From the sequence record MN445185.1: 64,000 nucleotides of DNA, one strand, 5' to 3'. This document shows, piece by piece, positions 3,963 to 51,554 of this stretch. The notes under the pieces are model-generated. The model worked only from the letters and a program-made list of their open reading frames with translations. It ran no database searches and was not told the DNA's origin. Made by a program: the position numbers and the translations under genes. Position 1 is the first letter of the stretch, and the number at the start of each line of letters is the position of its first letter. Source of the stretch: Escherichia phage vB_EcoM_EC001.

Positions 3963-6131
3963 ATGTCATACACTCCCGATTTAGTGGCGACCGTGATTCG
4001 GTCGCTCAACCGTAAAAACGCGGTCGCCAAAGCAGTAGACCCCGCTAACGTACGCCTGGTGTCCGTGGCGCATCGTGACGAAAAAACCCTAGACGTCACA
4101 CTGACAGGGGGTCCGGGGTATTCAAGTTACGGTCAAATTACGGCCCAAGTCACGAAGCAAAATATTGCTGATTATTTCGCCAAGGTTAAGTTGGATGCCA
4201 TTCCCACTTGTGCGTCCATCCACGAACTGTTGCCGCATTTAGACACTCTACTAGGGATTACCTTTTTAACCGACGACTTTGAAGACCTGCCTATCACTTG
4301 GACAAACAATGCTGCGCGCGTCACGTTCCAGGCGAAACAGACAAGTCTTATCTGGTACGGCAGCCAAACGCTAGATGTGATAAACGGTGACGTGGATATC
4401 AACACTGTCTACACTGTTACCAATATCATTCTCACGCTAAAGGCTGCGAATAAACAGCAGTGGATTAACTTCTACTCTAATGCAACCAAACGGATCGTGG
4501 ATCTTGATAAAGTCGATGTCAGCGCCCCGATGTCCCCGGAGGATATAGGCCAAACCTCTGCGTATAACAGCGTCGTAGCATTGACCGCTAGACCGGGGAG
4601 CGGGATGTTTGGAACGAAGTATGTGTTCTTCTCACGTAACAAACTCGAGACATATGCAGGCAAAACCACATACGTCCCGGATGATTTCACCGGTAGCCTG
4701 CACGATGCTCTGGCCATCGAGACACTCGGCATTCGGAGCGTTTTTGATGTAAACGAAATTGCTCCTGTAGAGAACCTGGCAGGCGAGTGGCCAAGACAAG
4801 TGCAATTGGCACCCGTAGAGGGTTCGTACAAAGTCATGGGCAACGCCACGTTGAATGTGGCACGCTATCAAGATAACGAGCAAACCCTTAACCTGAACTA
4901 CACAACTACGTCGCAACTTTCGGACAGCTACTGGGCCACAACGTTGATCAACCATGCGGCGTGCGGGCGTTTGTTTGTTAACGTGACCGTAGATGCAGGG
5001 GCTTTCGTTTATCGCGACAGCAACCTGAAACCGACGTTCGTTATCGACGAATTGCCGCAAATTGGCGAGGTGGTTTGGAACTTCGTTAACCGGGGAACCA
5101 TTCTTGGTCGTGGTGGTTCTGGTATGGTCTACTCTATGCCTGCGAACACATCAGCGGACGGAGCTGACGCAATCCACATTAGCGATACCTTCCGTGGCAA
5201 AGTCACCATCGAAAACTACGGCACCATCGCCGGTGGTGGGGGTGGGGGCGACTACTATGCGTTTAGCACCACCAAGATCGGTGGAGCTGGTGGTGCGCCT
5301 CTCGGGCCAGGCGCGGCGGTGCCCAGCGGCACCAATAACCGTAACGGCTTAGCTGGGTCCCGTGACAAAGGCGGTGCTACCCAGTTAGTCGTCGAGCAAT
5401 TTACCGGCTACCAGAGTCGCTACTATGGCGGTCCGGGTGGGGATTGGGGCCAGCCGGGACGATATACAGCGTTCGAGCAATGGAACACCCCGGCTACCGG
5501 CTCGCCAGTCTATGTCTACGGTCGTGAAGACGGGATGTCATGGACTCGCCCTGGGATGGCAGGCGAAGCTGTCGGTGGGAATAAAAGTATCGTCAACTGG
5601 GTATCCGTCGGAACGGTGAAACCGAATGTTACCGACGAGTACCAAGAGTTCCTCGACTACCTCGCAGTTTTAGATGCCAATCGACTGGCCAGTGCGGATG
5701 GGATAGATAAAGTCACCGACCCAACCAAGCCTGTAGTTGTGGAGTTCTTAGGTACGATTATTTCAGGTACGCTGTTCAAAAAGCAAAACATACCCGGCGG
5801 TTTGGTGGGAACACCATACGGCGATGCTATAGCCAATTTACCGAGCACCACATTGTTTGGTATCATGGCACACAGTGTATCTGAGTTTGATATTGTGCAC
5901 GACACTTGGCGTTACAACCGTGCGGTAATGTTCACGCTAAAACCCGCGCCTACCGGGACGATTAACCTCGCTGTGGAACGCAACCGGGTGAAATCGGCTA
6001 CCAGTAGTGCACCGGTGGAGAAGTTCTATGTCGATCGCTTCGTGTATTACGATGCGTATCTCGGTAAGATGATGGAATGTAATCCGTATACCAAATCCGC
6101 CCCTAAACCGTGGGTGCGGCCAAAGAAATAG
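3963..6131 (+). CDS. Putative tail fibre/adhesin-like protein with Gly-rich segment
   Basis: 722 aa; GGGGGGDYY...GGAGGAPLGPGAA glycine-rich region; C-terminal PYTKSAPKPW motif paralogous to the previous gene; followed by terminator 6187..6218. Confidence 0.5.
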   Translation: MSYTPDLVATVIRSLNRKNAVAKAVDPANVRLVSVAHRDEKTLDVTLTGGPGYSSYGQITAQVTKQNIADYFAKVKLDAIPTCASIHELLPHLDTLLGITFLTDDFEDLPITWTNNAARVTFQAKQTSLIWYGSQTLDVINGDVDINTVYTVTNIILTLKAANKQQWINFYSNATKRIVDLDKVDVSAPMSPEDIGQTSAYNSVVALTARPGSGMFGTKYVFFSRNKLETYAGKTTYVPDDFTGSLHDALAIETLGIRSVFDVNEIAPVENLAGEWPRQVQLAPVEGSYKVMGNATLNVARYQDNEQTLNLNYTTTSQLSDSYWATTLINHAACGRLFVNVTVDAGAFVYRDSNLKPTFVIDELPQIGEVVWNFVNRGTILGRGGSGMVYSMPANTSADGADAIHISDTFRGKVTIENYGTIAGGGGGGDYYAFSTTKIGGAGGAPLGPGAAVPSGTNNRNGLAGSRDKGGATQLVVEQFTGYQSRYYGGPGGDWGQPGRYTAFEQWNTPATGSPVYVYGREDGMSWTRPGMAGEAVGGNKSIVNWVSVGTVKPNVTDEYQEFLDYLAVLDANRLASADGIDKVTDPTKPVVVEFLGTIISGTLFKKQNIPGGLVGTPYGDAIANLPSTTLFGIMAHSVSEFDIVHDTWRYNRAVMFTLKPAPTGTINLAVERNRVKSATSSAPVEKFYVDRFVYYDAYLGKMMECNPYTKSAPKPWVRPKK

Positions 6132-6186
6132 TTATCATAATTTAACGAGGAACTTGACGGGGTTAAAGCCTGAGAATAACCCATGC

Positions 6187-6218
6187 CCTCTTCCCCACGG
6201 GGAAGAGGCTTTCTTTTT
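6187..6218 (+). terminator. Intrinsic terminator after 3963..6131
   Basis: CCTCTTCCCC / GGGGAAGAGG stem followed by CTTTCTTTTT. Confidence 0.65.
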
Positions 6219-6245
6219 ATGACCCTATCAACGCAGGAGGTTATC

Positions 6246-6836
6246 GTGGTCGATCGTTGGAGTAAAGAGGGCATTATTCGTGCCAAAGTAAACATCGAAG
6301 CCGGTTACGTTAATAACCCGAAAGATTTGGGCAAAGCAACGAACCGCGGTGTCACTGAACTCACAGCGCGTGAATATGGCTATAAAGGGGATATGCGTGA
6401 CCTGAGCCTAGAAACCGCGTTAGACATTTACAACAAGCTCTGGTGGCAGCGGATGCGCTTAGACCAGATTATGAAAATGAATGTCCTGCTAGCTGACCGG
6501 ATGTTTGATTTCGGCATCAACGCAGGTCGCGGTAACTGTATCAAGTCCCTGCAGCGCATTCTGAACGTATTAAACCGTCAGGGTAAACTGTACGACGACA
6601 TCGAAGCAGATGGCGGTATTGGGCCACGTACGTTAACAGCGTTAGAAGGCTTTATCAAAGCCCGTGGGGAAGAGGGCCTGAATCGACTGATATTCGCTTT
6701 AACCTGTCATCAGGTTGCGTACTACACGGAAATCAGTGAAGGGCGTGAGGATAACGAAGAGTTTACTTACGGCTGGTATGGCCGCGTCTATCAGGAAATG
6801 CCAGACTACGTGGCTAAGTTGGGGATGTGTAAATGA
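6246..6836 (+). CDS. Endolysin, GH108-like muramidase with C-terminal peptidoglycan-binding domain
   Basis: EAGYVNNPKDLGKATNRGVT matches the GH108 N-terminal EGGYVNDP.DPGG.T..G signature; DGGIGPRTL and GWYGRVY match the PG_binding_3 pattern. GTG 6246 follows RBS AGGAGG (6235-6240); track start 6183 and ATG 6219 lie inside the upstream terminator hairpin. Confidence 0.75.
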   Translation: MVDRWSKEGIIRAKVNIEAGYVNNPKDLGKATNRGVTELTAREYGYKGDMRDLSLETALDIYNKLWWQRMRLDQIMKMNVLLADRMFDFGINAGRGNCIKSLQRILNVLNRQGKLYDDIEADGGIGPRTLTALEGFIKARGEEGLNRLIFALTCHQVAYYTEISEGREDNEEFTYGWYGRVYQEMPDYVAKLGMCK

Positions 6837-7124
6837 AACAGAATTGGTTTGCTGCCTTAATGAAAGCTATCTGGCGCGCCCTTGTTTTTGCCGCAAGGAG
6901 AAAACGTAATGACCCACCGTCCAACTCCGCCTAAGTTCCCCGAAGTACAAACCGTTCCGGAAACGTATTACGATTCTGGGTTCTTCAAACTATTACGCGC
7001 GATTTTGTGTCGGAGAGTAAAGCCATGCAATACGACAACGACGACTGGCCGAAAGGCTTAATGCCCATTTTACTGGGATTAATGGTCCTCACGATGTTCG
7101 TGCGTTATATGACGTGAGGCCAGT

Positions 7125-7766
7125 ATGGAAGCACTTAAGTATAAGTTGTTAGAGAAGCCGTGGTTTATTCTCACGGATGATTTCCATTTCGAGTTTACGT
7201 TGCGCAGCCTCTATCGTGAACAGACCGGAATGGATGCGATGGTAGCATTATCAGGTGTACATCCGGATACTCCGTTATGGGTAACGGTGCCGAAAGGATT
7301 TGTAACGGACCTGGCAAGCATTCCAGAAGCGTTACGTCCTATCCTGCATCCGGATGGCCCTTGGGCTGCTGCCGCTTGTGTGCATGATTTGTTTTACCAG
7401 AAACGTTCATCGGTAGGCTTTTACCCTGACACCGTTGAAGGTAATCTATCTCGTGCTTGCGACAAAACATTCGCTGACTTGATGTTCTTACGCATCATGG
7501 AGGCATTAGGCGTTGACACCTTTATTCGTAAGTCCTTCTACCATGCCGTTCACGAGTTTGGTTGGCCGTCCTATGTAGACGATAACTCTAAGGTGGTTTA
7601 TAGCCGGCCGGTAGAAAAGACGTTGTCCTATAATCGCAACTACCTGTTCTTTAGAACGTCGCGTACGTTAGCGATTCCTGAACACGAACGTGTTGACATC
7701 ACTAATGGGCAACCGGTAAACGTGCAGTATTTGAATATCAAACGTGCGTTCCTGACTGCCCCTTAA
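7125..7766 (+). CDS. Hypothetical protein
   Basis: 213 aa ORF with RBS GAGG before ATG; no motif recognised with confidence. Confidence 0.5.
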   Translation: MEALKYKLLEKPWFILTDDFHFEFTLRSLYREQTGMDAMVALSGVHPDTPLWVTVPKGFVTDLASIPEALRPILHPDGPWAAAACVHDLFYQKRSSVGFYPDTVEGNLSRACDKTFADLMFLRIMEALGVDTFIRKSFYHAVHEFGWPSYVDDNSKVVYSRPVEKTLSYNRNYLFFRTSRTLAIPEHERVDITNGQPVNVQYLNIKRAFLTAP

Positions 7767-7775
7767 GGAGAGAAA

Positions 7776-8291
7776 ATGTTTCATCCGAATCCTGCCAACT
7801 TCGCGTTAAAAGAGTTGATGCCGCAGGAGTACATCGCGAAATACGGTGAAGGTGCTATTCGTTTCCTTAATCCGTTACTGCTAATCTCGCTCCAACAGAT
7901 TCGTAATCGTTTTGGGCGGATGGTGATTTTAACCAGTTCCCAGCAACAGCGTAGTCTGCGTACCCTGCAGTTCTTTATTAATCAAGAGAAACCAAAGGGT
8001 GGAGATTGGCAAACTCGTGCAAACAAACTGTACGCCGAATCAGGCAGTATGCATAAATTCGGTAATGCGTTTGATGCAACAATGCTCGATACTCCGTTGC
8101 AGAAAGTGCACGATTATATTGCCGCGAACCCTGACGAGTTTCCATTTATTCACTTTATCGAGTGCGATATTACCTGGCTACATGTTGACGTACGCAACCA
8201 ACCTGATATCACCTTCTGGTCACCAACACGTGGTACCGTTAAAGTGGTAAAACAACAACCCATCGATTGGAGCAAGCTAGTTAAAATCTAA
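7776..8291 (+). CDS. Peptidase M15-family peptidoglycan hydrolase (T5-endolysin-like L-alanyl-D-glutamate peptidase)
   Basis: RBS AAGGAG; zinc-ligand motifs H-x6-D (SMHKFGNAFD) and downstream LHVDV closely resemble the T5 endolysin/VanY pattern (HITGDAID ... HVEL). Confidence 0.65.
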   Translation: MFHPNPANFALKELMPQEYIAKYGEGAIRFLNPLLLISLQQIRNRFGRMVILTSSQQQRSLRTLQFFINQEKPKGGDWQTRANKLYAESGSMHKFGNAFDATMLDTPLQKVHDYIAANPDEFPFIHFIECDITWLHVDVRNQPDITFWSPTRGTVKVVKQQPIDWSKLVKI

Positions 8292-8370
8292 GCCACTTTA
8301 ATCAAAAGTAATATCATTTATCATTTGATACGTTTAATGCGCTTAGAGAGCGTTACAGAGCGTTTTAGAG

Positions 8371-8430
8371 GGTAAATAAAGCCCTTACCCACTCCCCTTA
8401 CGGGAGTGGGTAAGCACTATTTATTTTCTT
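8371..8430. terminator. Bidirectional intrinsic terminator between convergent genes
   Basis: 13-bp stem CTTACCCACTCCC / GGGAGTGGGTAAG (8384-8396, 8402-8414), A-rich upstream and T-rich downstream. Confidence 0.7.
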
Positions 8431-8908
8431 CTAACGGAACAATCGTAACCGGGGTAGGAACTTCGTCAATAAAGCCGCCGCTGCAGCGAAAGAACGTCAT
8501 CCCTTTACCTTCCCCGGTATGCGGGTTCACATCCGAAAAAGAGTAAGTGGGGCCATCGTTTACGGTTTTATTAATACGGTAATAACGCTCACCTGTGGTG
8601 GTGTTAACATTCCCGTCGATTTTGCCAATTGTATCTTTAAACATCATCGGTGACTCAAGTTTGCCACCGTCCCACGTTGCTACCCAGTTTGCACCCACAT
8701 CCATTACTGTTACTGACCGCGGCATCATTTGTAGGTTGTCCAGTACCGGACGGTAGTCTATAAACTTCTCCTGTGTCCCTGTGCATGTATAAATCACCAA
8801 GTCGCGATTCTTTACCGGTGTGCTGCTAAATTGTCCGATGTTGCTTGGTGACTGGACGCAACCGGTCAACAGGCTTATAAACGCGAATACGATAAATAGA
8901 CGTTTCAT
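8417..8908 (-). CDS. Lipoprotein (signal peptide with lipobox LTGC)
   Basis: N-terminus MKRLFIVFAFISLLTGC; isolated minus-strand gene between a bidirectional terminator and a divergent intergenic region. Confidence 0.65.
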   Translation of the reverse strand: MKRLFIVFAFISLLTGCVQSPSNIGQFSSTPVKNRDLVIYTCTGTQEKFIDYRPVLDNLQMMPRSVTVMDVGANWVATWDGGKLESPMMFKDTIGKIDGNVNTTTGERYYRINKTVNDGPTYSFSDVNPHTGEGKGMTFFRCSGGFIDEVPTPVTIVPLEENK

Positions 8909-9032: not shown

Positions 9033-9581
9033 ATGGCAGTCATCTCTGCAAAAGACCAACTCGTCGCGCTGTTTAATGCCGCAAACAGCGGACTGCCTAG
9101 TCCGTTAACTGCTGCTGACGTTACATTCGGCGCTGTTGCTGACTATTCACCAGCTGATTCTGGAGACACTCGCAACTCCAAACTCACCATCACCGCCACC
9201 GCGGAATCCGCTAACTTTACTGGCGAGAAAGAGCTGCATTATACCCGCCTCAATTTATCGGACTTCATCGGTGCGAAAGCAGTGACCGCTGACCAGGCAG
9301 AATGGGATACCGATGAAGAAGTGCTTGCTTTTGTCAACGCAGAACTATTTGGCGACGGTGAAACGGAAGATCCGTTTGCGTTGTCTGAACTCACCATTTC
9401 ACGCGAAGACGGCAGCAGTGGTGAGAAAGTCATCACTGTTATGGTGAAAGAAGGCCACATTAAATTCCAACCTGTCAGCCTTGGAGTTTATACTGTAACG
9501 CAGCCAATCGTTAAAACTGACCTGAGCACCACCAACGGTGAACTGGGCGGATTCGGCGGCGAAGGTCACGCTGGCATGTAA
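9033..9581 (+). CDS. Hypothetical protein
   Basis: RBS AAGGAA; C-terminal TTNGELGGF motif resembles the C-terminus of the 1..634 product. Confidence 0.5.
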   Translation: MAVISAKDQLVALFNAANSGLPSPLTAADVTFGAVADYSPADSGDTRNSKLTITATAESANFTGEKELHYTRLNLSDFIGAKAVTADQAEWDTDEEVLAFVNAELFGDGETEDPFALSELTISREDGSSGEKVITVMVKEGHIKFQPVSLGVYTVTQPIVKTDLSTTNGELGGFGGEGHAGM

Positions 9582-9661: not shown

Positions 9662-10333
9662 TTACATGCCGAGTGATTCGGACAATGTTTTTAATCCAGT
9701 GTAATCGCGCTTTTCAGCTAACTCACGGATTTGGCGTTTGTTATCTGCCATTGCTGAGTGCAACACCTGGTCGCGTGCAACAATAGCGGCCAACAACGCT
9801 TTACATTGGTCTACTGTAAACGGACTGTGCTTCGTATTCAGCGTATCGAGCCAGTATTCTGGTGCGGTATCTGCCTGAATGTATTGACCGAGGATGGTAC
9901 GCGACGATTCATCGGCTTGAAAGTGACTACCTTCAAACTCGATATAACCATGACGCTCATCTTCGTAGCGATGGTCAAGTTCCAACAGCATCTTCTGCAC
10001 GTCTTCGTAAATGTAACGTGCGGTAGATTTCAGATTCCCGCGAATTTCGTCGAGGTCAATCTCCAGCACATTAGCAATAAACTCTTTCGTGCGTTTCAAT
10101 GTGAATTTAGCTTCAATCTCCGACATCTCATACAGCTTCATGCGTGCCAGGGCTTCTTTATCAGACATCCCTTCGATGAGATGATAATGGAGCAGAGCGC
10201 AAAAGCCTGTACGGCCCTGATCCTGCGCACCGATTCGTTCCATGAAATTACCGTGACGATCAATCGGCAAATCACGCTGGAAATAACGGGCGCGGATCTC
10301 TTCGTTCGTTAAGCTTTTGTCAGTAACAGACAT
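9662..10333 (-). CDS. Hypothetical protein (last gene of the minus-strand operon)
   Basis: 223 aa ORF ending just before bidirectional terminator 9611..9657; no recognisable motif. Confidence 0.5.
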   Translation of the reverse strand: MSVTDKSLTNEEIRARYFQRDLPIDRHGNFMERIGAQDQGRTGFCALLHYHLIEGMSDKEALARMKLYEMSEIEAKFTLKRTKEFIANVLEIDLDEIRGNLKSTARYIYEDVQKMLLELDHRYEDERHGYIEFEGSHFQADESSRTILGQYIQADTAPEYWLDTLNTKHSPFTVDQCKALLAAIVARDQVLHSAMADNKRQIRELAEKRDYTGLKTLSESLGM

Positions 10334-10875
10334 TCGTCCTCCTCAATCAGGCCAAGTTCTAACAACAAACCGAAGTCCAGCATCTGGAAGTCCTGATCGA
10401 GGTTACCGGCCCACAACAGAGAAATGTTGTGTTGCTCTTCTTCTTCCAACTGCGGGAGCAGGTGTTCTTCGAAGATTTGACGTTCTGTGTAATAAGCGTC
10501 AACCGGGTTATTGGAGCGTAAGTTACGAATACGCATCCGCGGGAAAGACAAGCCCAAAGCCACTAAACTTTCAGGACTGGCTTCATCGATGGAATGACGT
10601 AGCAGTTCGATTTTGTGGCGTGGGTATGCGAGCAGTCGCTTCTCAAAGCCAGGGTTGCGCTTTTCGATTTCCGCGACAGACTCGTGTCCTTTCTCAACGC
10701 AGTAGACCGGGATCATCACATTCAGCCCGTATTTAATCAACAGGCTTTGGATTTCATCAGTGAAGTCTTCCCCTGCCACAATTGCGTGCACATTGTACAG
10801 CTTGCTTTTGCGCAGGAAGCGATCGACCAAGTGCAGTTTACGCTTCGTAAAATTGTGAATCAGTATTGACTTCAT
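10309..10875 (-). CDS. Hypothetical protein
   Basis: Start moved to the internal ATG (MKSILIHNF...) which has GGAG 7 nt upstream; overlaps the upstream rSAM gene by about 38 nt. Confidence 0.5.
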   Translation of the reverse strand: MKSILIHNFTKRKLHLVDRFLRKSKLYNVHAIVAGEDFTDEIQSLLIKYGLNVMIPVYCVEKGHESVAEIEKRNPGFEKRLLAYPRHKIELLRHSIDEASPESLVALGLSFPRMRIRNLRSNNPVDAYYTERQIFEEHLLPQLEEEEQHNISLLWAGNLDQDFQMLDFGLLLELGLIEEDECLLLTKA

Positions 10876-12166
10876 TCTGGGCTCCGTTTTGTAATTTTTC
10901 TGCTTCGGCACGTTGGCGTACACAACGTGAACAATAGCACATGGATTTATCATGCAAATCTGATGCGCGGGTCGTACCAGTTTTCTGATACCAATATTCC
11001 GCCGCCATCAGTTTCGCAGTAGTCCAACCACACTGACGACGCTCGGCGTGATACGCTTTACGGTCTTCCAGTGTACCTTCACCGTTTTCGTACGATGCTG
11101 CTGCGCAGCTACCGCAACTGTGTTTCATCGGACACCCTAAACAGGTTTCTGGGTAGTTGGTGTACTGCGTTTGAATCTCTTCTAACAGCTTACCACCGTC
11201 CAGGCTCACAAACTCACGACCGACCAGTTCTGCTACAGCAGAGCGGGAAGTTACCGTGGACATGAAACGGTTACAACCGTAAATCTTGCGATCAAAGCCG
11301 AGACAGGTCATGTGCGTCAACGTACCGCAGTACGGTTTCAGGCGTTCTGGGTCGAGACGAACAGAGTCGTCATGTAAGAGTTTGTCACGCCAATCCGGGT
11401 CCCAAGTTGCCATAAAGTTCAGGCCATCCGGGATGATGTGCGTAATCGTGTTACGCGGGTTGGTGTGCAGACCCTTCTCAATCCAGTAGTCCATCACGTC
11501 CATCATCTGGTTCGCGATATCCAACGCCATATGGCGCGGCAGGATATCTTCGTACGTTACATTACCAGAAATGGTACCACCGCCGGACATGTCAATTAAC
11601 GATTTCATGCTGGCGGCATAGTGCGGCAATGTATCGATCGTGAACGTCGCCTTTACGCCCAGCTCAGCGATGCCGACACTCTTCAGATAATTGTAACCGC
11701 GTACCGCAGCTTCGTACGACCCTTCACGCGTCGTGGTAAAGATACGATATTTGTCATGGACTTCAGGTAAACCATCGATGGAGACCCCAATAGACAGTTT
11801 GTCTTTCCAGCGCTCGATAATTTCTTTGTTCAGCGGACGGTCCAGAAGTGTACCGTTCGTGGAGATACTGAACATATACGGGCGATTGTGTTCTGCGCAT
11901 AACTTCTCTGCGGTTTCAAAGGCCGCCAAAAGAAGTTTAGGCTGCATGAACGGCTCACCACCAATGATATCGATGATGACTTCAACGTTCGGGATATCTT
12001 TATCGCGCTCGAAACAAGCGTGGATAAAATCAATCACGTCTGCTACTTTGTTGTTACGAGGATATTTACGCTCGTAGCAGTATTCGCAGTCCAGGTTACA
12101 TGACAGGTTAGTCACAACCTGATACGTGCGTGGTGTGTACTGGATTTGCTGTTCGCTGTTACTCAT
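10838..12166 (-). CDS. Radical SAM enzyme with C-terminal Cys-rich (SPASM/twitch-like) auxiliary cluster domain
   Basis: CNLDCEYC (CxxxCxxC) near the N-terminus and GGEP SAM-binding motif; C-terminal clusters CGTLTHMTC, CLGCPMKHSCGSC (Cx2Cx5Cx2C) and CYCSRC. Start overlaps the upstream gene stop (ATGAGTAA). Confidence 0.8.
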   Translation of the reverse strand: MSNSEQQIQYTPRTYQVVTNLSCNLDCEYCYERKYPRNNKVADVIDFIHACFERDKDIPNVEVIIDIIGGEPFMQPKLLLAAFETAEKLCAEHNRPYMFSISTNGTLLDRPLNKEIIERWKDKLSIGVSIDGLPEVHDKYRIFTTTREGSYEAAVRGYNYLKSVGIAELGVKATFTIDTLPHYAASMKSLIDMSGGGTISGNVTYEDILPRHMALDIANQMMDVMDYWIEKGLHTNPRNTITHIIPDGLNFMATWDPDWRDKLLHDDSVRLDPERLKPYCGTLTHMTCLGFDRKIYGCNRFMSTVTSRSAVAELVGREFVSLDGGKLLEEIQTQYTNYPETCLGCPMKHSCGSCAAASYENGEGTLEDRKAYHAERRQCGWTTAKLMAAEYWYQKTGTTRASDLHDKSMCYCSRCVRQRAEAEKLQNGAQNEVNTDSQFYEA

Positions 12167-13073
12167 TGTTCGCCGCCCGTTTACGCTTAGCAGAAATTAC
12201 ACGGTTGATGTAGTTATACGCATCAACGCCGATAGAACGCGCCAGGCGATTACAGCCGACTTCCAATATCTCTGGGGCGTTCTGAATTTGCTCCTGCGTA
12301 CCGTCGGCGTTAAGCCACAGCACTTCACTGCACGTGTTGCACTCGGTATCGAACATTTTACTGATCGCAAGCCCACACTCAGAATCGTTCTGCATGTTAA
12401 GGCGTTCGATATTGTCGAGTATTTTCCAATACCCGTACATGAAGTTCATGACGTGGTCTGGCGATAACGGTTTCGGCATCATCGCATCAAACAGCAACGA
12501 CATACCACCTGGACGGTAATGATAGATTGCTCGGTGCAGCTCGATGAAATCTTCGTACCAGCGTTTATCGCCTAACTGGTCACGCGTCATCACACCCCAG
12601 GTGTAATAGTTGTCCAGCTCGTACAGCACTTCCAGCGCTTCGTGATTACCACCGTTTACAAAGTTCATAAACGGACGTTCCGACTTCTTGTAGCCGTCAA
12701 TGGACACAAAGATAAGGTCGAACTGTTTCAGCAACGGCAGATGTGATTTACGCATCTTTAAACCGTTGGTGTACATGTGATGACGGAGGTTCGGATGAGA
12801 CTCCTTCAACTCGTTCACGAAGTCTTCAATCTTACGCTGCGCTAACAGCGGCTCACCGCCCGTCCAATGAATCTCACCGATATCCGGATTCTTCTCTAAA
12901 ATCGAGAGAATCTCTTCACGTTGAAACTCACGAGAAGTATCTTCTCTATCCATGTAATAAGCCCCTCCACAGAAGCTACAGTCTAAGTTACACTTAGAAG
13001 TTGCGACAACCGACAGAATTGACGGTTTGTCGTACAGTTCAGACGAGATCCTGGATTCTACTTGATCTGTCAT
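12159..13073 (-). CDS. Radical SAM enzyme (second, shorter)
   Basis: CNLDCSFCGG (CxxxCxxC), GGEP motif, and C-terminal cysteines (ECGLAISKMFDTECNTC...GC) suggesting an auxiliary cluster. Confidence 0.75.
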   Translation of the reverse strand: MTDQVESRISSELYDKPSILSVVATSKCNLDCSFCGGAYYMDREDTSREFQREEILSILEKNPDIGEIHWTGGEPLLAQRKIEDFVNELKESHPNLRHHMYTNGLKMRKSHLPLLKQFDLIFVSIDGYKKSERPFMNFVNGGNHEALEVLYELDNYYTWGVMTRDQLGDKRWYEDFIELHRAIYHYRPGGMSLLFDAMMPKPLSPDHVMNFMYGYWKILDNIERLNMQNDSECGLAISKMFDTECNTCSEVLWLNADGTQEQIQNAPEILEVGCNRLARSIGVDAYNYINRVISAKRKRAANNE

Positions 13074-39473: not shown

Positions 39474-41984
39474 ATGCTCAAGGTCGAACGTATCATTTTG
39501 AAAGGATTTACCGGCATGGGGTTACATGAAATCGAAACGTTTGATTTCACCCTCAAGTCCACCGTTACCATCATCCTCGGCGGTAACGGCTGCGGTAAAA
39601 CAAGCCTCCTATCTGTTTTTCTCCCCATAGCTCCAGCAAAATCTGAATTCCGTGAAGGTGGTTCTTACACTAACTACGCGTTAGTCGGGGACGACCGTCT
39701 TAAGTTTGAAGTCCTGCGTCGTGGGTCTTCTCTGTCTTGTAGTATCTTCAACATCACTAAAGGTGTTTCCGTCGTAGACTCGGTAAACGCCAAAGTTTAC
39801 AACTCCATGGTGGAGCAATTAACCGGAATCACCAAAGAAATCAAAGAGTTAATTAATGGTGAGACCTTATTAACTGACGCCACTACCGAAGTTCGTCGTA
39901 AATGGTTTACGTTAATGTCAGAATCTGATCTGACGTACGTTGTTGGTTGTTATCGTCGTCTGCGTAAACTCGCTTCCAGTTTAAGTGGGGCCATTGAGCA
40001 CACCGGCCGTAAAATCGGTGAGGCAAAAATGCGCGTGGTGGACGATGAAGAAGATCGTGCACGTTTGGAAGTTCGTTTGAAAGAACTGGACGTTGAGCTT
40101 CAGGAACTAAACCGCACCATTGAAGCGAGACCCGGTTTAGATAACGCCGTTTCGGTTGATAGTATCCGGAAACGCATTGCTTCGTTGCAACCGGCTGTAA
40201 AACTCATTATGGAGCGTTATGGTGTTCTGCCTTCTGACGAACTGATTAACGAGTTTCAAAGTCGTGTAGTTGCCTGGCGTGAGCAAGCTGCCTCTGCTGA
40301 AACTGAATGCAACATGTACAATAAAGAGTTGTCACAGCTACTGGATGAGGAGTCGCGTCAAGCGTATCTGATGCGCAACCATACCGGTCTAAAACAAACA
40401 ATCGACAGCTTAAAACAGGAACTGGCAACGTTCCAACAGAACTGGATGTTCCCGGCTCTGTTTGAAGGTACCCGCATCGATGTGGATAGCATTCAGAACG
40501 CGTTAAACGATGCCTGTAACTGGAATTTACCGTTGTCCATGCATCTGGACCAGTTAAAGACAACAGAGCGCCTGGGAGCGTTAGAGAAGCGTTTACAGGG
40601 TATGGATTTAACCTCTGCGGGTCTATCTGAAAAGCTGCAACGTTGTGAGAATGTGCTACACGGTTTATACCACGACCGTCAACACTTCTTAGAAACTGCA
40701 GAAGTTGATTGTCCACAGTGTAACCACCGTTTCCGTCCTGGGATTCGTAAGTCGTTACCTGAAATTGAAAAGGCCATCAACGATAATGAAGGTTGGAAGA
40801 AGCAGCTGAAAGACGAAATGGATAGTCTTTTGCGTGACCGCAAAGAGATTGAAGAGGACGTCCGTAGCTTACGTACGATTCGCGAAATCGTCATGTCGTA
40901 TTCCAATCATCCCGTTGTCGGTTTGTTTTTCCGTAAACTGCAGGAGCTGGATATCTTCACCACGGCGCGGGATCGTTACGGTGCCATTGCACGTGCCTTT
41001 ACTGAAGAGTTAGATTCGGCCATGATGTATCTGCGTCAATCGGCGAAGCTTGCAACAGCGGAACGGGAATGGCAAGAGGCTGTTGCCGCAGTAGGTAACG
41101 TTGATGGTGCGCTGAGCCAGAAAATTGAACATATCCGTTCACAACTGGATGGGGCTAACCGTCGACTGATAGAATACCGCAGACAAGCCAATGAGCTGGA
41201 ACGCGAAACCACCCAACTGCAACAAACCAAAGAAGCAATCGAACGTTTCCAAAAGGGCTACGAACATCTGGTATCGGAAATGAACATCTCCGTTAACAAC
41301 GTCGTGGTTCGCGAGTTGTTAAACCGACGCGAAGCGAAGCTCGATGCGTATACTTCCGCTCGTGAACGGTTTCGTCAAATGGAAGGGGCTATTGCACGTT
41401 TAGCGGAACTGGAAAAAGAGCAAGCTGAATTGCTTAAAGAGCATCACCATGCCAGATTGATTATCAATGCCGTCTCACCCGAAAAAGGATTATTGCGTCG
41501 TTACTTTTATGCTGCGATTACCCGCATCATGGATTTAATGAATCGGTATATCGAAATGGTGTGGGCATATCCGATGCAGGTTATTCCATGCGATCTAACC
41601 GACGGGGATTTGGATTATACTTTCCCGGTACGATTAAAAGACCATGAAGAACTGGTGCCGGATGTGAAGAAAGGTTCGAAGGCACAGCGTATTATCTTTA
41701 ACATGATGTTTCGTTTAACGGCGTATAAAGCGCTTGGTTTACAAAACTATCCTTTGTTATTGGATGAACCCTCTGAAGGCATGGATGAGGAACACAAAAA
41801 TCGACTGGTCAACTTCATTAAATCGTTGGCGTTGTCGGGAGAGTTTTCTCAATTGCTGGTCGTTTCGCATGAAGCGGAAGTTCATTCTAAACTTAACGAA
41901 GCCACCTACTGTGTCGTGGAGCCAGAAGGTGTAACGCTTCCACCGGTTTATAACGAAGGGGTAATAATCAAATATGCATCATAA
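39474..41984 (+). CDS. Rad50/SbcC-family ATPase with coiled coil and central CxxC zinc hook
   Basis: N-terminal Walker A GGNGCGKTS; central CPQC in the middle of a long coiled-coil-like region; C-terminal Walker B LLLDEPSEGMD and H-loop VVSHE. Confidence 0.8.
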   Translation: MLKVERIILKGFTGMGLHEIETFDFTLKSTVTIILGGNGCGKTSLLSVFLPIAPAKSEFREGGSYTNYALVGDDRLKFEVLRRGSSLSCSIFNITKGVSVVDSVNAKVYNSMVEQLTGITKEIKELINGETLLTDATTEVRRKWFTLMSESDLTYVVGCYRRLRKLASSLSGAIEHTGRKIGEAKMRVVDDEEDRARLEVRLKELDVELQELNRTIEARPGLDNAVSVDSIRKRIASLQPAVKLIMERYGVLPSDELINEFQSRVVAWREQAASAETECNMYNKELSQLLDEESRQAYLMRNHTGLKQTIDSLKQELATFQQNWMFPALFEGTRIDVDSIQNALNDACNWNLPLSMHLDQLKTTERLGALEKRLQGMDLTSAGLSEKLQRCENVLHGLYHDRQHFLETAEVDCPQCNHRFRPGIRKSLPEIEKAINDNEGWKKQLKDEMDSLLRDRKEIEEDVRSLRTIREIVMSYSNHPVVGLFFRKLQELDIFTTARDRYGAIARAFTEELDSAMMYLRQSAKLATAEREWQEAVAAVGNVDGALSQKIEHIRSQLDGANRRLIEYRRQANELERETTQLQQTKEAIERFQKGYEHLVSEMNISVNNVVVRELLNRREAKLDAYTSARERFRQMEGAIARLAELEKEQAELLKEHHHARLIINAVSPEKGLLRRYFYAAITRIMDLMNRYIEMVWAYPMQVIPCDLTDGDLDYTFPVRLKDHEELVPDVKKGSKAQRIIFNMMFRLTAYKALGLQNYPLLLDEPSEGMDEEHKNRLVNFIKSLALSGEFSQLLVVSHEAEVHSKLNEATYCVVEPEGVTLPPVYNEGVIIKYAS

Positions 41985-42165
41985 AGGTTGGCGCTTATGG
42001 GCTTGGTGGGGTTTTCAGTTCCTTCAGTTTGTTGTGATGGTACTGTACCTCTCCTTTTGTGCAACCGTAGTGGTTATCGCTGCGGTCGTTTATTTAGCTG
42101 CTGCTCTTAAAGAACGTCTGTTCGACACGCGTTGTGAGTGGCGAGATATAGGAGAACGGACATGA
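41974..42165 (+). CDS. Small hydrophobic membrane protein
   Basis: 63 aa; hydrophobic stretch FQFLQFVVMVLYLSFCATVVVIAAVVYLAAAL. Confidence 0.4.
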   Translation: MHHKGWRLWAWWGFQFLQFVVMVLYLSFCATVVVIAAVVYLAAALKERLFDTRCEWRDIGERT

Positions 42166-42266
42166 TTGAAGGTATCGTATTAACCGGTATTGCACTGTGG
42201 TTGATTCGTGGTGCCTGGGGTTGGATTATCCGCACGAAAGGATGGGCATTCCATGGCAAGACGTAA
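42162..42266 (+). CDS. Small hydrophobic peptide (34 aa)
   Basis: ATG preceded by GGAGAA; MIEGIVLTGIALWLIRGAWGWII...; below the ORF-track length cutoff, my own translation. Confidence 0.35.
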   Translation: MIEGIVLTGIALWLIRGAWGWIIRTKGWAFHGKT

Positions 42267-42444
42267 ACCTGGTCGTTTAAAGTTTTGGGCAGTTGTGGTA
42301 ATGCACACTGTGGTGCTACTCGGTATTTTCATGTCTCGCGCTACGCCTGCCTTTTGGGGCTTAGTTGTTTTGGTGTTCTTAGAAGGGGTTTACTTCGGTA
42401 ATCTGTGGAGCAAGCCCCCCGCGTTTAAGGGACCCGGCTTATGA
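42253..42444 (+). CDS. Small hydrophobic membrane protein
   Basis: Start at internal ATG (MARRKPGRLKFWAVVVMHTVVLLGIFM...); one or two TM-like segments. Confidence 0.4.
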   Translation: MARRKPGRLKFWAVVVMHTVVLLGIFMSRATPAFWGLVVLVFLEGVYFGNLWSKPPAFKGPGL

Positions 42445-42572
42445 CAGTCGTGAATAGTGTCAACGCAGCCATGATTGCAACAGGTGCGTATGATGGTGCC
42501 ACCTGGACAGACCTTGGCATTACGATTATCATCTGTGCAATCGGAGCATTTCTGGCATCATGGTTATTTTAG
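42441..42572 (+). CDS. Small hydrophobic peptide (43 aa)
   Basis: ATGA start/stop overlap with the previous gene; ...LGITIIICAIGAFLASWLF; my own translation. Confidence 0.35.
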   Translation: MTVVNSVNAAMIATGAYDGATWTDLGITIIICAIGAFLASWLF

Positions 42573-43110
42573 TGAAGTGGGTTGGGTGTATCATCTGTAG
42601 CCTGGTACTAGGAGCAGGCGCATACGCCCTAGGCGCAATCCTTGCATTGACGCAAGGTTGGTTTTAACAGGAGGGTAATTACGAAGTGGGAGAAGTATCA
42701 TGTAACAGTGAAACAGTCTCTGATCCCGTGGTCGTGGGTTCAGGGGCGGCCGTGCCAACCCGGCGTATCGTTCTTTCGAGCGCGGGGATGGCTATAGGGT
42801 CTTCAAAGAACCTTCTAGCAGACATCGCGGAAGTCTGCGGGCCGGATGATTTTGCAGTTTCACGTACAGTCGGGGAAGACTGGCGTGGTAATCAGAAGCG
42901 CCATGAGCGAATGTGGCGACGGAAGGTTACCTCAGCATCGCAGCGTTTTCAACGACGTTGTTGATCAAAGACACGGTTCCGATAGAGAACTGGTCTTTAC
43001 CTGCAGCGGTATACACCGCTTAAGTTTACCGGTAAACTTAAGAAAACACAAACGCAATTCTTCGTTACTCGCTTTCATCGCAGGTGAAAGCTCACTTAGG
43101 AATTCAGCTC

Positions 43111-50549: not shown

Positions 50550-51065
50550 GTGAGCATGATAGCATCAGTTTTCAAACTGCTTCCATTCTTACAGATGCTG
50601 TGGGAAGCATTTAAACCGGGCGAGGGGGAGAAAGTAACACGAGCCGGGAAGATAGTGACACTAGTGATAGTGGCACTGGTCGCGTTCTCTGCATTTGTCT
50701 CATATGCCTATATTGTTCAATACCACACACTGGTTAGCGTCCAATCGCGTACTCAGTATCTGGAGATATCCTATAAGGAGCTAAAAGAGAAGTCCGATCA
50801 TGGCGAAGTGGAGAACAATAAGCTGTACGATCGTCTCTTCACATGCCTGGGTTCTCGATCGCCATATGATGGTACCAAATCTCCAACAGGGACAGGCACT
50901 GGGGCCGCGGTTCCGCCTGAAGAACTCAAGCCGGTAACACCACAGGCACCGTTAAATCCGTCTAGCCCGCCTGCCAAGAAACACCAGGCGGCTTCTCGCC
51001 CAGTGGGGTCGCAGGCGGCAAACGATTTCCGACAGGAGATTATCAAGACGCTTAATAATCCATGA
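50550..51065 (+). CDS. Membrane-anchored protein with Pro-rich periplasmic tail (i-spanin-like candidate)
   Basis: Single N-terminal TM (IVTLVIVALVAFSAFVSYAYIV), then a charged helical segment and a Pro-rich C-terminus. Confidence 0.4.
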   Translation: MSMIASVFKLLPFLQMLWEAFKPGEGEKVTRAGKIVTLVIVALVAFSAFVSYAYIVQYHTLVSVQSRTQYLEISYKELKEKSDHGEVENNKLYDRLFTCLGSRSPYDGTKSPTGTGTGAAVPPEELKPVTPQAPLNPSSPPAKKHQAASRPVGSQAANDFRQEIIKTLNNP

Positions 51066-51074
51066 GGAGCATAC

Positions 51075-51554
51075 ATGAAGTTATTTTTGGTGGCGATACT
51101 GGTGCTATTGTTGACAGGATGCCCTGGGGTCATCCGTCACGTAGACCCAGATTACTCCTCAACCGGAGATTGGCCTTTTCGTCCTTTAGAACACCCACCA
51201 GTATATAACGGTGGGAACAGTCCTGAGGCGAAAAAGCTGGCAGGGAAAATGTTTGTTGCGGATGTGAACGCTTATGCTTATTACGTTTATCTGTACGCTA
51301 AGTCAGTAAACAACTATGCAGAAGCTAAAGGGTGGCACACCCCGATGACCGCACCGCTTTGTGAAGAGTTTATTCGCCCCACTCTTCATGGTATACCCTC
51401 CGGGATATATCTCGACCCTGGTTCTCGTAGCCCTCAAGACATTAGTCGTGATTTGTCACGACAGATTAAGTCTCTCATTCGCAGCTATCGCGAAGACAGA
51501 GAGTCTTTTAATCGTGCCTACGAACGGCACAAAAGTAGTTGCCTTGTGCAATGA
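51075..51554 (+). CDS. Lipoprotein (lipobox LTGC)
   Basis: MKLFLVAILVLLLTGC signal/lipobox; immediately downstream of the membrane-anchored gene; followed by terminator 51558..51597. Confidence 0.6.
   Translation: MKLFLVAILVLLLTGCPGVIRHVDPDYSSTGDWPFRPLEHPPVYNGGNSPEAKKLAGKMFVADVNAYAYYVYLYAKSVNNYAEAKGWHTPMTAPLCEEFIRPTLHGIPSGIYLDPGSRSPQDISRDLSRQIKSLIRSYREDRESFNRAYERHKSSCLVQ

What the first reader, a model, noticed from the sequence alone, without database searches (positions are those of the whole stretch)
6246..8291. Lysis module with two different peptidoglycan hydrolases and three small ORFs in between
A GH108-type muramidase with a peptidoglycan-binding domain is followed by three unannotated small ORFs and then, after a 213-aa unknown, an M15 peptidase with the H-x6-D and HVDV motifs. 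The small ORFs are 6833..6934 (33 aa, amphipathic and basic), 6909..7058 (49 aa, overlapping in another frame) and 7025..7117 (30 aa, hydrophobic stretch GLMPILLGLMVLTMFV). The small hydrophobic peptide could be a holin or antiholin-like factor; no canonical holin is evident.
Basis: partly seen in the sequence, partly recalled or inferred. Interest (0 to 1): 0.35.

Follow-up and report, generated by a model that had tools for sequence, protein, structure and literature searches.

The report
Jumbo-phage endolysin operon with phospholipase

Summary
The window is about 97% identical to the Salmonella jumbo phage SPN3US.

**The unit.** Positions 6246-8291 lie between two hairpin terminators and hold six tightly packed genes, each with its own Shine-Dalgarno site:
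- gp156, a GH108 + PG_binding_3 muramidase. Its closest solved relatives are the TtsA-family proteins 6V3Z and 6V40.
- Three small ORFs of 33, 50 and 30 aa.
- gp157, 213 aa.
- gp158, a divergent M15/LAS-fold zinc peptidase.

**Small ORFs.** All three are real genes. They are conserved in diverged relatives and show purifying selection only in the stated frames. ORF2 and ORF3 occur fused as one 52-aa ORF in another jumbo phage.

**gp157.** The "213-aa unknown" is a DUF1353 protein. This is the family of TtaP, the experimentally shown phospholipase A2 of the typhoid toxin islet. The catalytic residues are conserved, and the top fold match is a fungal PLA2.

**Still open.**
- No ORF matches a known holin family. 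ORF3 has the operon's only clear transmembrane helix and is the best in-operon holin candidate, but this is untested.
- A spanin-like pair lies 43 kb away, so an alternative outer-membrane disruptor is not required.
- gp157 was also detected weakly in virions, so an entry role cannot be excluded.

**Verdict:** a new variant of a known kind of lysis cassette, of moderate interest.

The parts
6187..6208 (+). Intrinsic terminator ending the upstream gene (gp155). It is followed by a T-run and the motif TTTATGACCCT (6216-6226), a candidate late promoter.
   Evidence: 9-bp stem with 6 GC pairs, then a T-run; every relative has a hairpin, a T-run and TATG(A/T)(A/C)C 30-45 nt upstream of the first gene of this unit. 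The promoter function is inferred.
6246..6836 (+). gp156: soluble GH108 muramidase with a PG_binding_3 domain (TtsA family). GTG start, no signal sequence or transmembrane domain.
   Evidence: Pfam hits. phrog_315 endolysin, E 1.7e-39. PDB 6V3Z E 3.7e-41 and 6V40 E 1.3e-39. The GTG start with AGGAGG is conserved in SPAsTU, phiEaH2 and Asesino.
6833..6934 (+). ORF1: 33-aa cationic (+6) amphipathic peptide. Its ATG overlaps the endolysin stop codon (ATGA).
   Evidence: phrog_25143, E 3.4e-12. Homologues in SPAsTU, phiEaH2, Asesino and the L022/L034-37/L042 group. pS about 0.8 against pN about 0.1 in this frame only. Hydrophobic moment 0.53.
6909..7061 (+). ORF2: 50-aa peptide with a Pro-rich N-terminus (PPKFPEVQ) and a basic amphipathic helix (GFFKLLRAILCRRV). 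It overlaps ORF1 and ORF3.
   Evidence: AAGGAG site 8 nt upstream. Conserved in SPAsTU, phiEaH2 and Asesino. Purifying selection in this frame only. The N-terminal half matches the 52-aa ORF of L029 (BLASTP 1e-6).
7025..7117 (+). ORF3: 30-aa single-pass membrane peptide with an acidic N-terminus (DNDDWP), one transmembrane helix and a short basic tail. It is the best in-operon holin candidate.
   Evidence: Kyte-Doolittle mean 1.88 over 18 residues. GGAGAG site 7 nt upstream. Homologues in SPAsTU, Machina, ChrisDB and L029. An analogous 29-aa peptide follows a GH108 endolysin in the unrelated locus L027.
7125..7766 (+). gp157: DUF1353 protein with a TtaP-type phospholipase A2-like core (H87, D88, Y91, D118) and extra N- and C-terminal parts. 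No signal sequence.
7776..8291 (+). gp158: divergent M15/LAS-fold zinc peptidase (H93, D100, H136, D138), a putative second cell-wall hydrolase.
8384..8414 (.). Bidirectional terminator closing the operon. It is shared with the convergent lipoprotein gene.
   Evidence: 13-bp stem with 8 GC pairs, found on both strands.
50550..51065 (+). i-spanin-like protein (transmembrane domain, coiled coil, Pro-rich tail), distant from the operon.
   Evidence: tblastn 33% identity, E 2.4e-20, to CR5_183, which Kongari et al. 2018 list as the i-spanin.
51075..51554 (+). o-spanin-like lipoprotein (lipobox LLLTGC), 10 nt after the previous gene, as in CR5.
   Evidence: Spanin function was not tested.

Best explanation
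Positions 6246-8291 form one late transcription unit that serves as the endolysin-centred lysis module of an SPN3US-like jumbo phage.

**Shown.**
- It encodes a soluble TtsA-type GH108 muramidase (gp156) and an M15/LAS-fold zinc peptidase (gp158).
- It encodes a DUF1353 protein (gp157) with a TtaP-like phospholipase A2 core.
- Three tiny genes under purifying selection sit directly behind the endolysin.
- None of the three enzymes has a signal sequence.

**Inferred mechanism.**
1. The enzymes accumulate in the cytoplasm.
2. The small peptides are translated in step with the endolysin. They insert into the inner membrane (ORF3, one transmembrane helix) or lie on it (ORF1 and ORF2, cationic amphipathic helices). 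They provide or tune the membrane permeabilisation that releases the enzymes.
3. The muramidase and the peptidase then cut glycan and peptide bonds of the cell wall.
4. The phospholipase degrades envelope phospholipids, weakening the inner membrane or the inner leaflet of the outer membrane.
5. The separately encoded spanin-like pair (50550-51554) finishes outer-membrane disruption.

The individual roles of ORF1-3 (holin, antiholin or disruptin-like helper) are not resolved.
For: **One unit.**
- Terminators lie at 6187-6208 and 8384-8414.
- Gaps between genes are 7-9 nt or the genes overlap, and every gene has its own Shine-Dalgarno site.

**Enzyme identities.** See for the two hydrolases, and with PMC11525133 for the PLA2 family.

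**The small ORFs are real.** Synonymous changes are saturated and non-synonymous changes are low, only in the stated frames.

**Position of the small peptide genes.**
- Every jumbo lineage with the endolysin next to DUF1353 has at least one small hydrophobic or amphipathic peptide gene between them. The types are non-orthologous: ORF1 type, ORF2N-ORF3 type and Wellington type.
- Lineages without the endolysin there (CR5, Phobos, L023, L024, the Vibrio phage) have none.
- An unrelated phage contig (L027) has a 29-aa peptide of the same build overlapping the stop codon of its GH108 endolysin.

**DUF1353 and lysis genes.**
- In all jumbo relatives examined except the Vibrio phage and L025, DUF1353 sits near at least one cell-wall hydrolase. 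In every case but L023, where two genes intervene, the two are adjacent or separated only by small ORFs.
- DUF1353 lies inside annotated lysis cassettes in Fusobacterium phages (endolysin, TM protein, DUF1353, holin) and beside holin, endolysin or M15 genes in Pseudomonas AH02, Cygsa01 and Caulobacter DMCA.
- In the IMG/VR loci, it lies in or beside lysis cassettes in about 19 of 65 non-jumbo loci.

**Enzymes need export.** No N-terminal hydrophobic segment is present in gp156, gp157 or gp158.
Against: - No lysis phenotype has been tested for any gene here.
- ORF1-3 match no holin family. At 30 aa, ORF3 is, to my knowledge, smaller than established holins.
- Erskinevirus and the L022 group lack any clear transmembrane peptide in this unit.
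- Other small membrane ORFs (41974-42667, 47000-47266) could be the real holin.
- gp157 was found in wild-type SPN3US virions (4 peptides, 9 spectra, labelled "Head"). gp158 was found at trace level in some particle preparations. This fits an entry role instead.
- In about 20 non-jumbo loci DUF1353 directly follows tail-fibre or DUF4376 genes, not lysis genes.
- Deleting ttaP gave no envelope or secretion phenotype in S. Typhi.
- A spanin-like pair exists, so no additional outer-membrane disruptor is needed.
Confidence: 0.55

Rival explanations
1. This is a mixed module. gp156 and the small peptides serve lysis, but gp157 (PLA2-like) and gp158 (peptidase) are low-copy virion proteins. They would be delivered at infection to breach the membrane and cell wall, or to act on the membrane around the injected DNA.
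For: - gp157 is listed as a head protein in wild-type SPN3US virions and is lost in gp47-, gp218- and gp244-deficient particles.
- gp158 was detected in some particle preparations but not in tailless ones.
- The operon lies among virion-protein genes (gp151-155, gp160).
- DUF1353 often follows tail-fibre genes in small phages.
Against: - Spectral counts are at the bottom of the list: 9 spectra for gp157. gp157 does not appear in the passages of the 2016 supplementary table retrieved here.
- The authors themselves regard gp158 as probably non-specific.
- The genes are translationally packed behind an endolysin that was never found in virions.
- In Fusobacterium phages DUF1353 sits between the endolysin and the holin.
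Confidence: 0.25
2. The small ORFs are not the holin. They are accessory membrane peptides, for example lysis-timing regulators, antiholin-like factors or cationic helpers. The true holin lies elsewhere, for example among the tiny membrane ORFs at 41974-42667 or 47000-47266.
For: - ORF1 and ORF2 are surface-seeking amphipathic helices rather than transmembrane domains.
- The set of small ORFs varies between lineages (ORF1+2+3, ORF1+2, ORF1 only, or a fused TM peptide), which fits dispensable modulators.
- The spanin genes are also unlinked, so the lysis genes are dispersed in this phage.
- Several other small membrane ORFs exist in the window.
Against: - The other membrane ORFs have no holin annotation either, and nothing links them to lysis.
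- Non-orthologous replacement at a fixed position next to the endolysin is typical of holins (established knowledge of holin diversity).
- ORF3-type peptides recur after GH108 endolysins in an unrelated contig.
Confidence: 0.3
3. gp157 is a tail (fibre) assembly chaperone, as the PHROG and RefSeq labels say, and the small ORFs are chance reading frames in a spacer.
For: - phrog_1158 is labelled "tail assembly chaperone", as is the RefSeq product name.
- DUF1353 is often adjacent to DUF4376 or tail-fibre genes.
Against: - The label rests on no experiment that I could find.
- gp157 has a PLA2-like fold with conserved catalytic residues, and TtaP has measured PLA2 activity.
- The small ORFs show frame-specific purifying selection, Shine-Dalgarno sites and conservation down to about 60% identity of the flanking genes.
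Confidence: 0.05

Closest known systems
TtsA + TtaP of the Salmonella typhoid toxin islet (muramidase-dependent toxin release)
   Same: - gp156 is a close sequence homologue of the TtsA-family structures 6V3Z and 6V40 (E about 1e-40).
- gp157 belongs to the same Pfam family (DUF1353) as TtaP and keeps the His-Asp...Asp catalytic residues.
- Both enzymes lack signal sequences, and both occur in one small gene cluster.
   Different: - Here the pair sits in a lytic phage operon with small membrane peptides and a second peptidase, not with toxin subunits.
- gp157 is 213 aa against 125 aa for TtaP, with extra N- and C-terminal parts.
- In the islet the two genes are in different transcripts.
- Specificity for LD-crosslinks and PLA2 activity were not tested here.
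Canonical multigene lysis cassettes (lambda S-R-Rz/Rz1; phiKZ gp141-144, PMC12642527)
   Same: - A soluble endolysin clustered with small membrane proteins.
- Late operon organisation.
- A two-component spanin pair encoded by the phage.
   Different: - No homologue of any known holin. The only transmembrane product is 30 aa.
- The spanin pair is 43 kb away rather than in the cassette.
- Two extra enzymes are present: a PLA2-like protein and an M15 peptidase.
phiKT gp28 disruptin (cationic amphipathic peptide replacing spanins)
   Same: ORF1 (33 aa, +6) and ORF2 (50 aa, +6) meet the published screening criteria of under 80 aa and net charge of at least +4. They are also amphipathic by my own calculation, and they sit beside the endolysin.
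   Different: - Disruptins were defined in a spanin-less phage, whereas this phage has a spanin-like pair.
- ORF2 is only +2 in SPAsTU.
- There is no sequence similarity, and no complementation data.
Mycobacteriophage LysB (lipid esterase acting on the outer membrane linkage during lysis)
   Same: The concept is the same: a lipid-hydrolysing enzyme encoded next to the peptidoglycan hydrolase in a lysis cassette (abstract of PMC5707550).
   Different: - LysB belongs, from my own knowledge, to a different enzyme class, and it acts on mycolyl-arabinogalactan.
- gp157 is PLA2-like, and its substrate in vivo is unknown.
- The hosts are Gram-negative.
M15 phage endolysins and bacterial LAS peptidases (T5 and RB49 L-Ala-D-Glu peptidases, Ply500, LysB4, Streptomyces Zn DD-peptidase 1LBU)
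   Same: The H-x6-D ... H zinc-ligand pattern and the fold.
   Different: - The sequence is too diverged for Pfam's cut-off or for a PDB sequence search.
- The family is narrow (31 clusters).
- The bond it cleaves is unknown.

Membership tests
Glycoside hydrolase family 108 muramidase with PG_binding_3 (TtsA-type) | Significant match to PF05838 and PF09374 above the curated cut-offs | tested here: met
   66.8 bits (cut-off 21.2) and 68.6 bits (cut-off 24.6). PDB 6V3Z E 3.7e-41.
Glycoside hydrolase family 108 muramidase with PG_binding_3 (TtsA-type) | Catalytic Glu in the N-terminal E-G-G-Y motif (motif recalled from the GH108 literature) | tested here: met
   The sequence shows E18-A-G-Y, aligned to E-G-G-Y of 6V3Z. 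The Glu is kept; the second residue is Ala instead of Gly.
Glycoside hydrolase family 108 muramidase with PG_binding_3 (TtsA-type) | N-acetylmuramidase activity and LD-crosslink preference | not testable with these tools
   Needs an enzyme assay.
Peptidase family M15 / LAS zinc peptidases | Pfam Peptidase_M15 model above the curated cut-off | tested here: not met
   The window protein scores 16.7 bits against a cut-off of 23.2. However, 18 of 24 homologues match at E of 0.1 or better, best 6.8e-8.
Peptidase family M15 / LAS zinc peptidases | Zinc ligands H-x6-D plus a distal His | tested here: met
   H93, D100, H136 (and D138) are invariant in 24 sequences.
Peptidase family M15 / LAS zinc peptidases | LAS fold | tested here: met
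DUF1353 / TtaP-type phospholipase A2 | PF07087 match above the cut-off | tested here: met
   63.8 bits against a cut-off of 22.5. All 77 homologues match.
DUF1353 / TtaP-type phospholipase A2 | Catalytic His with an adjacent Asp, plus the distal dyad Asp (TtaP H70, D71, D85) | tested here: met
   H87 and D88 are invariant. D118 and Y91 are at least 90% conserved. Equating D118 with TtaP D85 is inferred, not aligned residue by residue.
DUF1353 / TtaP-type phospholipase A2 | Group XIII/XIV PLA2-like helical core | tested here: met
DUF1353 / TtaP-type phospholipase A2 | sn-2 phospholipid hydrolysis | not testable with these tools
   Shown only for TtaP (PMC11525133).
Holin (for ORF3, possibly ORF1) | At least one transmembrane domain, small size, location in the lysis cassette | tested here: met
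   ORF3 has one hydrophobic helix (Kyte-Doolittle 1.88) and sits 190 nt after the endolysin. ORF1 is amphipathic, not a clear transmembrane domain.
Holin (for ORF3, possibly ORF1) | Homology to a described holin family | tested here: not met
   No Pfam or PHROG holin match.
Holin (for ORF3, possibly ORF1) | Timed, PMF-sensitive lethal hole formation that releases the endolysin | not testable with these tools
   Needs lambda S complementation and uncoupler triggering, as done for phiKZ gp142.
Disruptin (phiKT gp28-like) for ORF1 and ORF2 | Under 80 aa and net charge of at least +4 (the published screening cut-off), with a predicted amphipathic helix (gp28's description) | tested here: met
   ORF1 has charge +6 and moment 0.53. 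ORF2 has +6 in the window but +2 in SPAsTU.
Disruptin (phiKT gp28-like) for ORF1 and ORF2 | Occurs in a phage without spanins and complements Rz/Rz1 | tested here: not met
   A spanin-like pair is present at 50550-51554. Complementation is not testable here.
Two-component spanin (for the overlapping small ORFs) | [quoted passage not shown] | tested here: not met
   None of ORF1-3 has a lipobox or a coiled-coil domain (sequences).

The most novel reading that the evidence does not exclude
DUF1353 phospholipase A2 is a genuine and so far unrecognised lysis-cassette effector: a lipid-hydrolysing activity that phages of diderm hosts deploy with their endolysin. It would accompany endolysins in jumbo Seoulvirus-like phages, Fusobacterium phages and others. 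On this reading the TtsA/TtaP pair of the typhoid toxin islet is a domesticated remnant of such a cassette, which would explain what TtaP is for. In addition, a 30-aa acidic-head, single-helix peptide (the ORF3 type) would be the smallest known holin.
Probability: 0.3. Interest if true: 0.75.

Novelty: new variant of a known kind. Interest (0 to 1): 0.5.

Why it matters
**Lysis in SPN3US-like jumbo phages.** It is uncharacterised. Their genome records annotate at most an endolysin, and phiKZ's cassette was defined only in 2025. This operon gives a concrete, clonable candidate set.

**Gene annotation.** It adds three real, mostly unannotated micro-genes to the SPN3US gene list. It also corrects the likely start of the endolysin.

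**The typhoid toxin question.** The same muramidase and DUF1353 phospholipase families that sit together in the typhoid toxin islet are co-transcribed here in a lytic phage. TtaP's biological role is an open question. A phage in which the homologue sits between two cell-wall hydrolases offers a simpler system to test whether this PLA2 family acts on the bacterial envelope during release.

**Annotation errors.** The "tail assembly chaperone" label now spreading through phage annotations for DUF1353 is probably wrong.

Tried and rejected
1. **One gene broken by frameshifts or sequencing error?** Rejected. Each small ORF has its own start codon and Shine-Dalgarno site. The three-ORF layout is kept in SPN3US and in the diverged SPAsTU.
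2. **Programmed frameshift joining the endolysin to ORF1?** There is no slippery heptamer at ...TGTAAATGA. The ATGA overlap fits termination-reinitiation coupling.
3. **The overlapping small ORFs as an embedded Rz/Rz1-type spanin pair?** Rejected, because there is no lipobox and no coiled coil. A separate spanin-like pair was found instead.
4. **Sequence searches of PDB.** Searches with gp157 (profile) and with gp158 (single sequence and profile) gave nothing meaningful. Only fold comparison worked.
5. **Pfam PLA2 models.** They do not hit any of the 77 DUF1353 homologues.
6. **The TTTATGWMCCY motif as a recurrent promoter in the window.** It occurs only once, at 6216. Its significance rests on conservation across relatives only.
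7. **Does the closest non-jumbo GH108 endolysin (Cronobacter phage CR3, 66% identity) carry a following micro-ORF?** No.
8. **Distant bacterial DUF1353 genes.** Three chromosomal contexts had no lysis neighbours, so the family is not exclusively lysis-linked.
9. **PHROG scan of other small membrane ORFs and of the spanin-like pair.** All came back as "unknown function".
10. **Literature searches.** Searches on SPN3US with holin or spanin, and on phospholipase with lysis cassette, found no prior description of this module.
Full report
**Origin and observation.** The region 6100-8400 is 97.5% identical over its full length to Salmonella jumbo phage SPN3US (genus Seoulvirus) and to about 30 close relatives. 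The window genes correspond to SPN3US_0156, 0157 and 0158.

**The unit is an operon.**
- A strong hairpin terminator (6187-6208, followed by a T-run) ends the upstream gene gp155.
- A 13-bp bidirectional terminator (8384-8414) separates gp158 from a convergent lipoprotein gene.
- Between them the genes are packed tightly. The ORF1 ATG overlaps the endolysin stop (ATGA). ORF2 overlaps ORF1 by 26 nt. ORF3 overlaps ORF2. gp157 starts 7 nt after ORF3, and gp158 starts 9 nt after gp157.
- Each start codon has its own AGGAGG, AAGGAG, GGAGAG or GAGG site 5-8 nt upstream.
- The long ATG-6183 reading frame printed by the ORF list runs through the terminator and is an artefact. The GTG at 6246 with AGGAGG is conserved in SPAsTU, phiEaH2 and Asesino. 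The RefSeq start for SPN3US corresponds to window 6219 and is probably too far upstream.
- In all relatives the first gene of this unit is preceded by a hairpin, a T-run and TATG(A/T)(A/C)C. This resembles what I recall of the phiKZ late-promoter consensus, which is a lead and not a test. The motif occurs only once in this window.

**gp156.**
- It matches Pfam Glyco_hydro_108 (E 2.5e-18) and PG_binding_3 (E 5.3e-19), and the endolysin family phrog_315.
- Its best solved relatives are 6V3Z (Sen1395, E 3.7e-41) and 6V40 (E 1.3e-39), with the E-(G/A)-G-Y motif aligned. From my recollection, these structures come from the work on TtsA, the typhoid-toxin secretion muramidase.
- It has no signal sequence or transmembrane segment.
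- Relatives of this endolysin type occur in 673 phage records.

**gp158.**
- The single-sequence Pfam match to Peptidase_M15_3 is below the cut-off (E 0.008), and PDB sequence searches fail.
- The family is narrow, with 31 clusters. Eighteen of 24 members hit Peptidase_M15_3, best E 6.8e-8.
- H93, D100, H136 and D138 are invariant.
- I accept it as a divergent M15/LAS zinc peptidase. The bond it cuts is unknown.

**gp157, the "213-aa unknown".**
- It is DUF1353 (PF07087, E 1.2e-17).
- The only functional paper on this family shows that S. Typhi TtaP, a 125-aa DUF1353 protein, is a phospholipase A2 distantly related to group XIV PLA2s. Its catalytic residues are H70, D71 and D85, and its biological role is unknown (PMC11525133).
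- In 77 homologues of gp157, H87 and D88 are invariant, and Y91 and D118 are at least 90% conserved.
- The PHROG and RefSeq label "tail assembly chaperone" has no experimental basis that I could find.

**The three small ORFs are genes.**
- ORF1 hits phrog_25143. It is conserved in SPAsTU, phiEaH2, Asesino and a metagenomic group (L022, L034-37, L042), always starting at the endolysin stop codon.
- ORF2 is conserved in SPAsTU, phiEaH2 and Asesino, with the core (S/A)GF(F/L)K(L/M)LRAI..RRV.
- ORF3 is conserved in SPAsTU. It is related to the single small ORFs of Machina, ChrisDB and L029.
- Between lineages, synonymous sites are near saturation (pS 0.7-1.0) while pN is 0.09-0.27 in the stated frames. 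The other two frames show the opposite pattern.
- ORF1 (+6) and ORF2 (+6) form amphipathic helices. Their hydrophobic moments are 0.53 over 18 residues and 0.63 over 11 residues. ORF3 has an acidic head (DNDDWP), one hydrophobic helix and a short basic tail.
- Contig L029 encodes one 52-aa ORF. Its N-terminal half matches ORF2 (PPxFPEVQ..Y, BLASTP 1e-6) and its C-terminal half matches ORF3 (E 0.015). ORF2 and ORF3 are therefore parts of one functional unit, either split here or fused there.

**Comparative pattern.**

| Lineage | Adjacent GH108 endolysin | Small ORFs between endolysin and DUF1353 | M15 peptidase |
|---|---|---|---|
| Seoulvirus (this window, SPN3US, SPAsTU) | yes | ORF1 + ORF2 + ORF3 | yes |
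| L022 group | yes | ORF1 only | yes |
| Erskinevirus (phiEaH2, Asesino) | yes | ORF1 + ORF2 | no |
| Machinavirus and L029 | yes | fused ORF2N-ORF3 peptide | no |
| Wellingtonvirus, L033, L038 | yes | an unrelated TM peptide | no |
| CR5, Phobos, L023, L024 | no | none | yes |
| Vibrio phage pVp-JHP1101, L025 | no | none | no |

- DUF1353 is the constant element, and the GH108 and M15 genes alternate around it.
- The small peptide genes travel with the endolysin. In every lineage with the endolysin, at least one hydrophobic or amphipathic micro-gene occupies the slot, and the types are not orthologous. From general knowledge, this pattern is typical of holins.
- In an unrelated high-GC phage contig (L027), a GH108 + PG_binding_3 endolysin is followed by a 29-aa peptide of the same build (MSPDSDALYYSASLIVLGIFVLVILKNIR) that overlaps it by 4 nt. 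A DUF1353 gene lies 2 kb downstream, after a lipoprotein gene.

**Is DUF1353 a lysis gene?**
- *For.* In Fusobacterium phages it lies between the endolysin and the holin. In Pseudomonas AH02 it ends a cluster that begins with a holin, and the depositors call it a phospholipase. In Caulobacter DMCA it follows an M15 peptidase. In Cygsa01 it overlaps an endolysin. Among 65 non-jumbo IMG/VR loci, about 13 have the Fusobacterium-type order and 6 more have a lysozyme or M15 neighbour.
- *Against.* About 20 loci place it directly after tail-fibre or DUF4376 genes. Three bacterial chromosomal copies have unrelated neighbours. These counts are not phylogenetically independent, and my gene calling was crude.
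- *Proteomics.* SPN3US proteomics lists gp157 as a low-abundance "Head" protein (4 peptides, 9 spectra) that is absent from three mutant particle types. gp158 appears only in trace amounts in some preparations, and the authors judged it probably non-specific. gp156 is not reported in virions. A virion or entry role for gp157 therefore cannot be excluded.

**Other lysis genes in the window.**
- Kongari et al. list CR5_183 and the gene after it as a separated i-spanin/o-spanin pair.
- The window encodes a homologue at 50550-51065 (33% identity, E 2.4e-20). Ten nucleotides later it encodes a lipoprotein with the lipobox LLLTGC (51075-51554). An alternative outer-membrane disruptor is therefore not required.
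- No holin family member is found anywhere in the window. Other tiny membrane ORFs (41974-42667, 47000-47266) are alternative candidates.

**Mechanism, with what is shown and what is inferred.**
- *Shown.* The operon structure, the enzyme families and conserved catalytic residues, the absence of export signals, the coding status and physicochemical character of the peptides, and their linkage to the endolysin.
- *Inferred.* The peptides permeabilise or regulate the inner membrane. ORF3 is the best holin candidate. ORF1 and ORF2 are cationic helpers, antiholin-like or disruptin-like. The muramidase, peptidase and phospholipase then attack the wall and the membrane lipids. The distant spanins complete lysis.
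- A plausible but untested control is Ca2+ dependence of the PLA2, which would keep it inactive in the cytoplasm.

**Comparison with known systems and novelty.**
- The module works like a multigene lysis cassette, but it differs in four ways. It has no recognisable holin, carries a PLA2-like enzyme and a second hydrolase, uses micro-peptides of 30-50 aa, and has unlinked spanins.
- I found no paper that connects DUF1353 or PLA2 with phage lysis cassettes, and none that describes lysis genes of SPN3US-like phages.
- The co-occurrence of TtsA-type and TtaP-type genes in one phage operon gives an evolutionary rationale for their joint presence in the typhoid toxin islet.
- I classify the finding as a new variant of a known kind, with moderate interest (0.5).

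Noticed in passing
window 50550-51065 and 51075-51554 (+): A separated spanin-like pair lies 43 kb from the endolysin. The first protein has a transmembrane domain, a coiled coil and a Pro-rich tail, and is 33% identical to CR5_183. The second is a lipoprotein with the lipobox LLLTGC. PHROGs lists both as unknown function.
   Followed up: partly
window 8417-8908 (-): A 163-aa lipoprotein (MKRLFIVFAFISLLTGC...) converges on the operon and shares its bidirectional terminator. It is conserved next to DUF1353 in almost all jumbo relatives (phrog_9559, unknown). It has no C-terminal transmembrane domain, so it is not a unimolecular spanin of the T1 type.
   Followed up: partly
window 41974-42667 and 47000-47266 (+): There is a row of four tiny membrane ORFs (63, 78, 43 and 35 aa; the 78-aa one has two hydrophobic helices) and an 88-aa membrane ORF. 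All are PHROG unknown or unmatched. They are alternative holin candidates.
   Followed up: partly
window 6183-6246; SPN3US NC_027402 135425: The RefSeq and GenBank start of the SPN3US endolysin (window 6219 ATG) lies in the junction between the terminator and the TATG motif. The conserved GTG at 6246 with AGGAGG is the likelier start.
   Followed up: yes
window 6209-6230; same position in L004-L011, L022-L024: A conserved T-run followed by TATG(A/T)(A/C)C sits directly after a hairpin terminator, 30-45 nt upstream of the first gene of this unit in every relative. This holds whether that first gene is the endolysin or DUF1353. It may be a late promoter of the phage RNA polymerase. The exact motif occurs only once in the window.
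   Followed up: partly
window 3963-6131 (+), gp155: This 722-aa protein combines DUF7941 with a GP38 tail-fibre-adhesin domain. Yet SPN3US mass spectrometry finds it at equal levels in tailless particles, so it behaves as a head protein. gp160 (9033-9581) shares DUF7941 and is a very abundant capsid protein.
   Followed up: no
window 9662-13073 (-) compared with L007-L011: The block of DUF4376, a 188-aa gene and two radical-SAM genes lies downstream and inverted here. In Machina, ChrisDB, Wellington and CR5 it lies directly upstream of this unit on the same strand. This is a local inversion between genera.
   Followed up: no
L029 2855-3013 (IMGVR_UViG_3300011862_000001): A single 52-aa ORF joins the N-terminal half of ORF2 to an ORF3-like transmembrane peptide. 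This is a natural fusion, or the unsplit ancestor, of two window genes.
   Followed up: yes
phage records LR535905, LR535908, LR535917 and other SPFM genomes: Several SPFM genome records match this region in 32 separate pieces, and their proteins are truncated or garbled. This looks like indel-ridden assemblies rather than biology.
   Followed up: no
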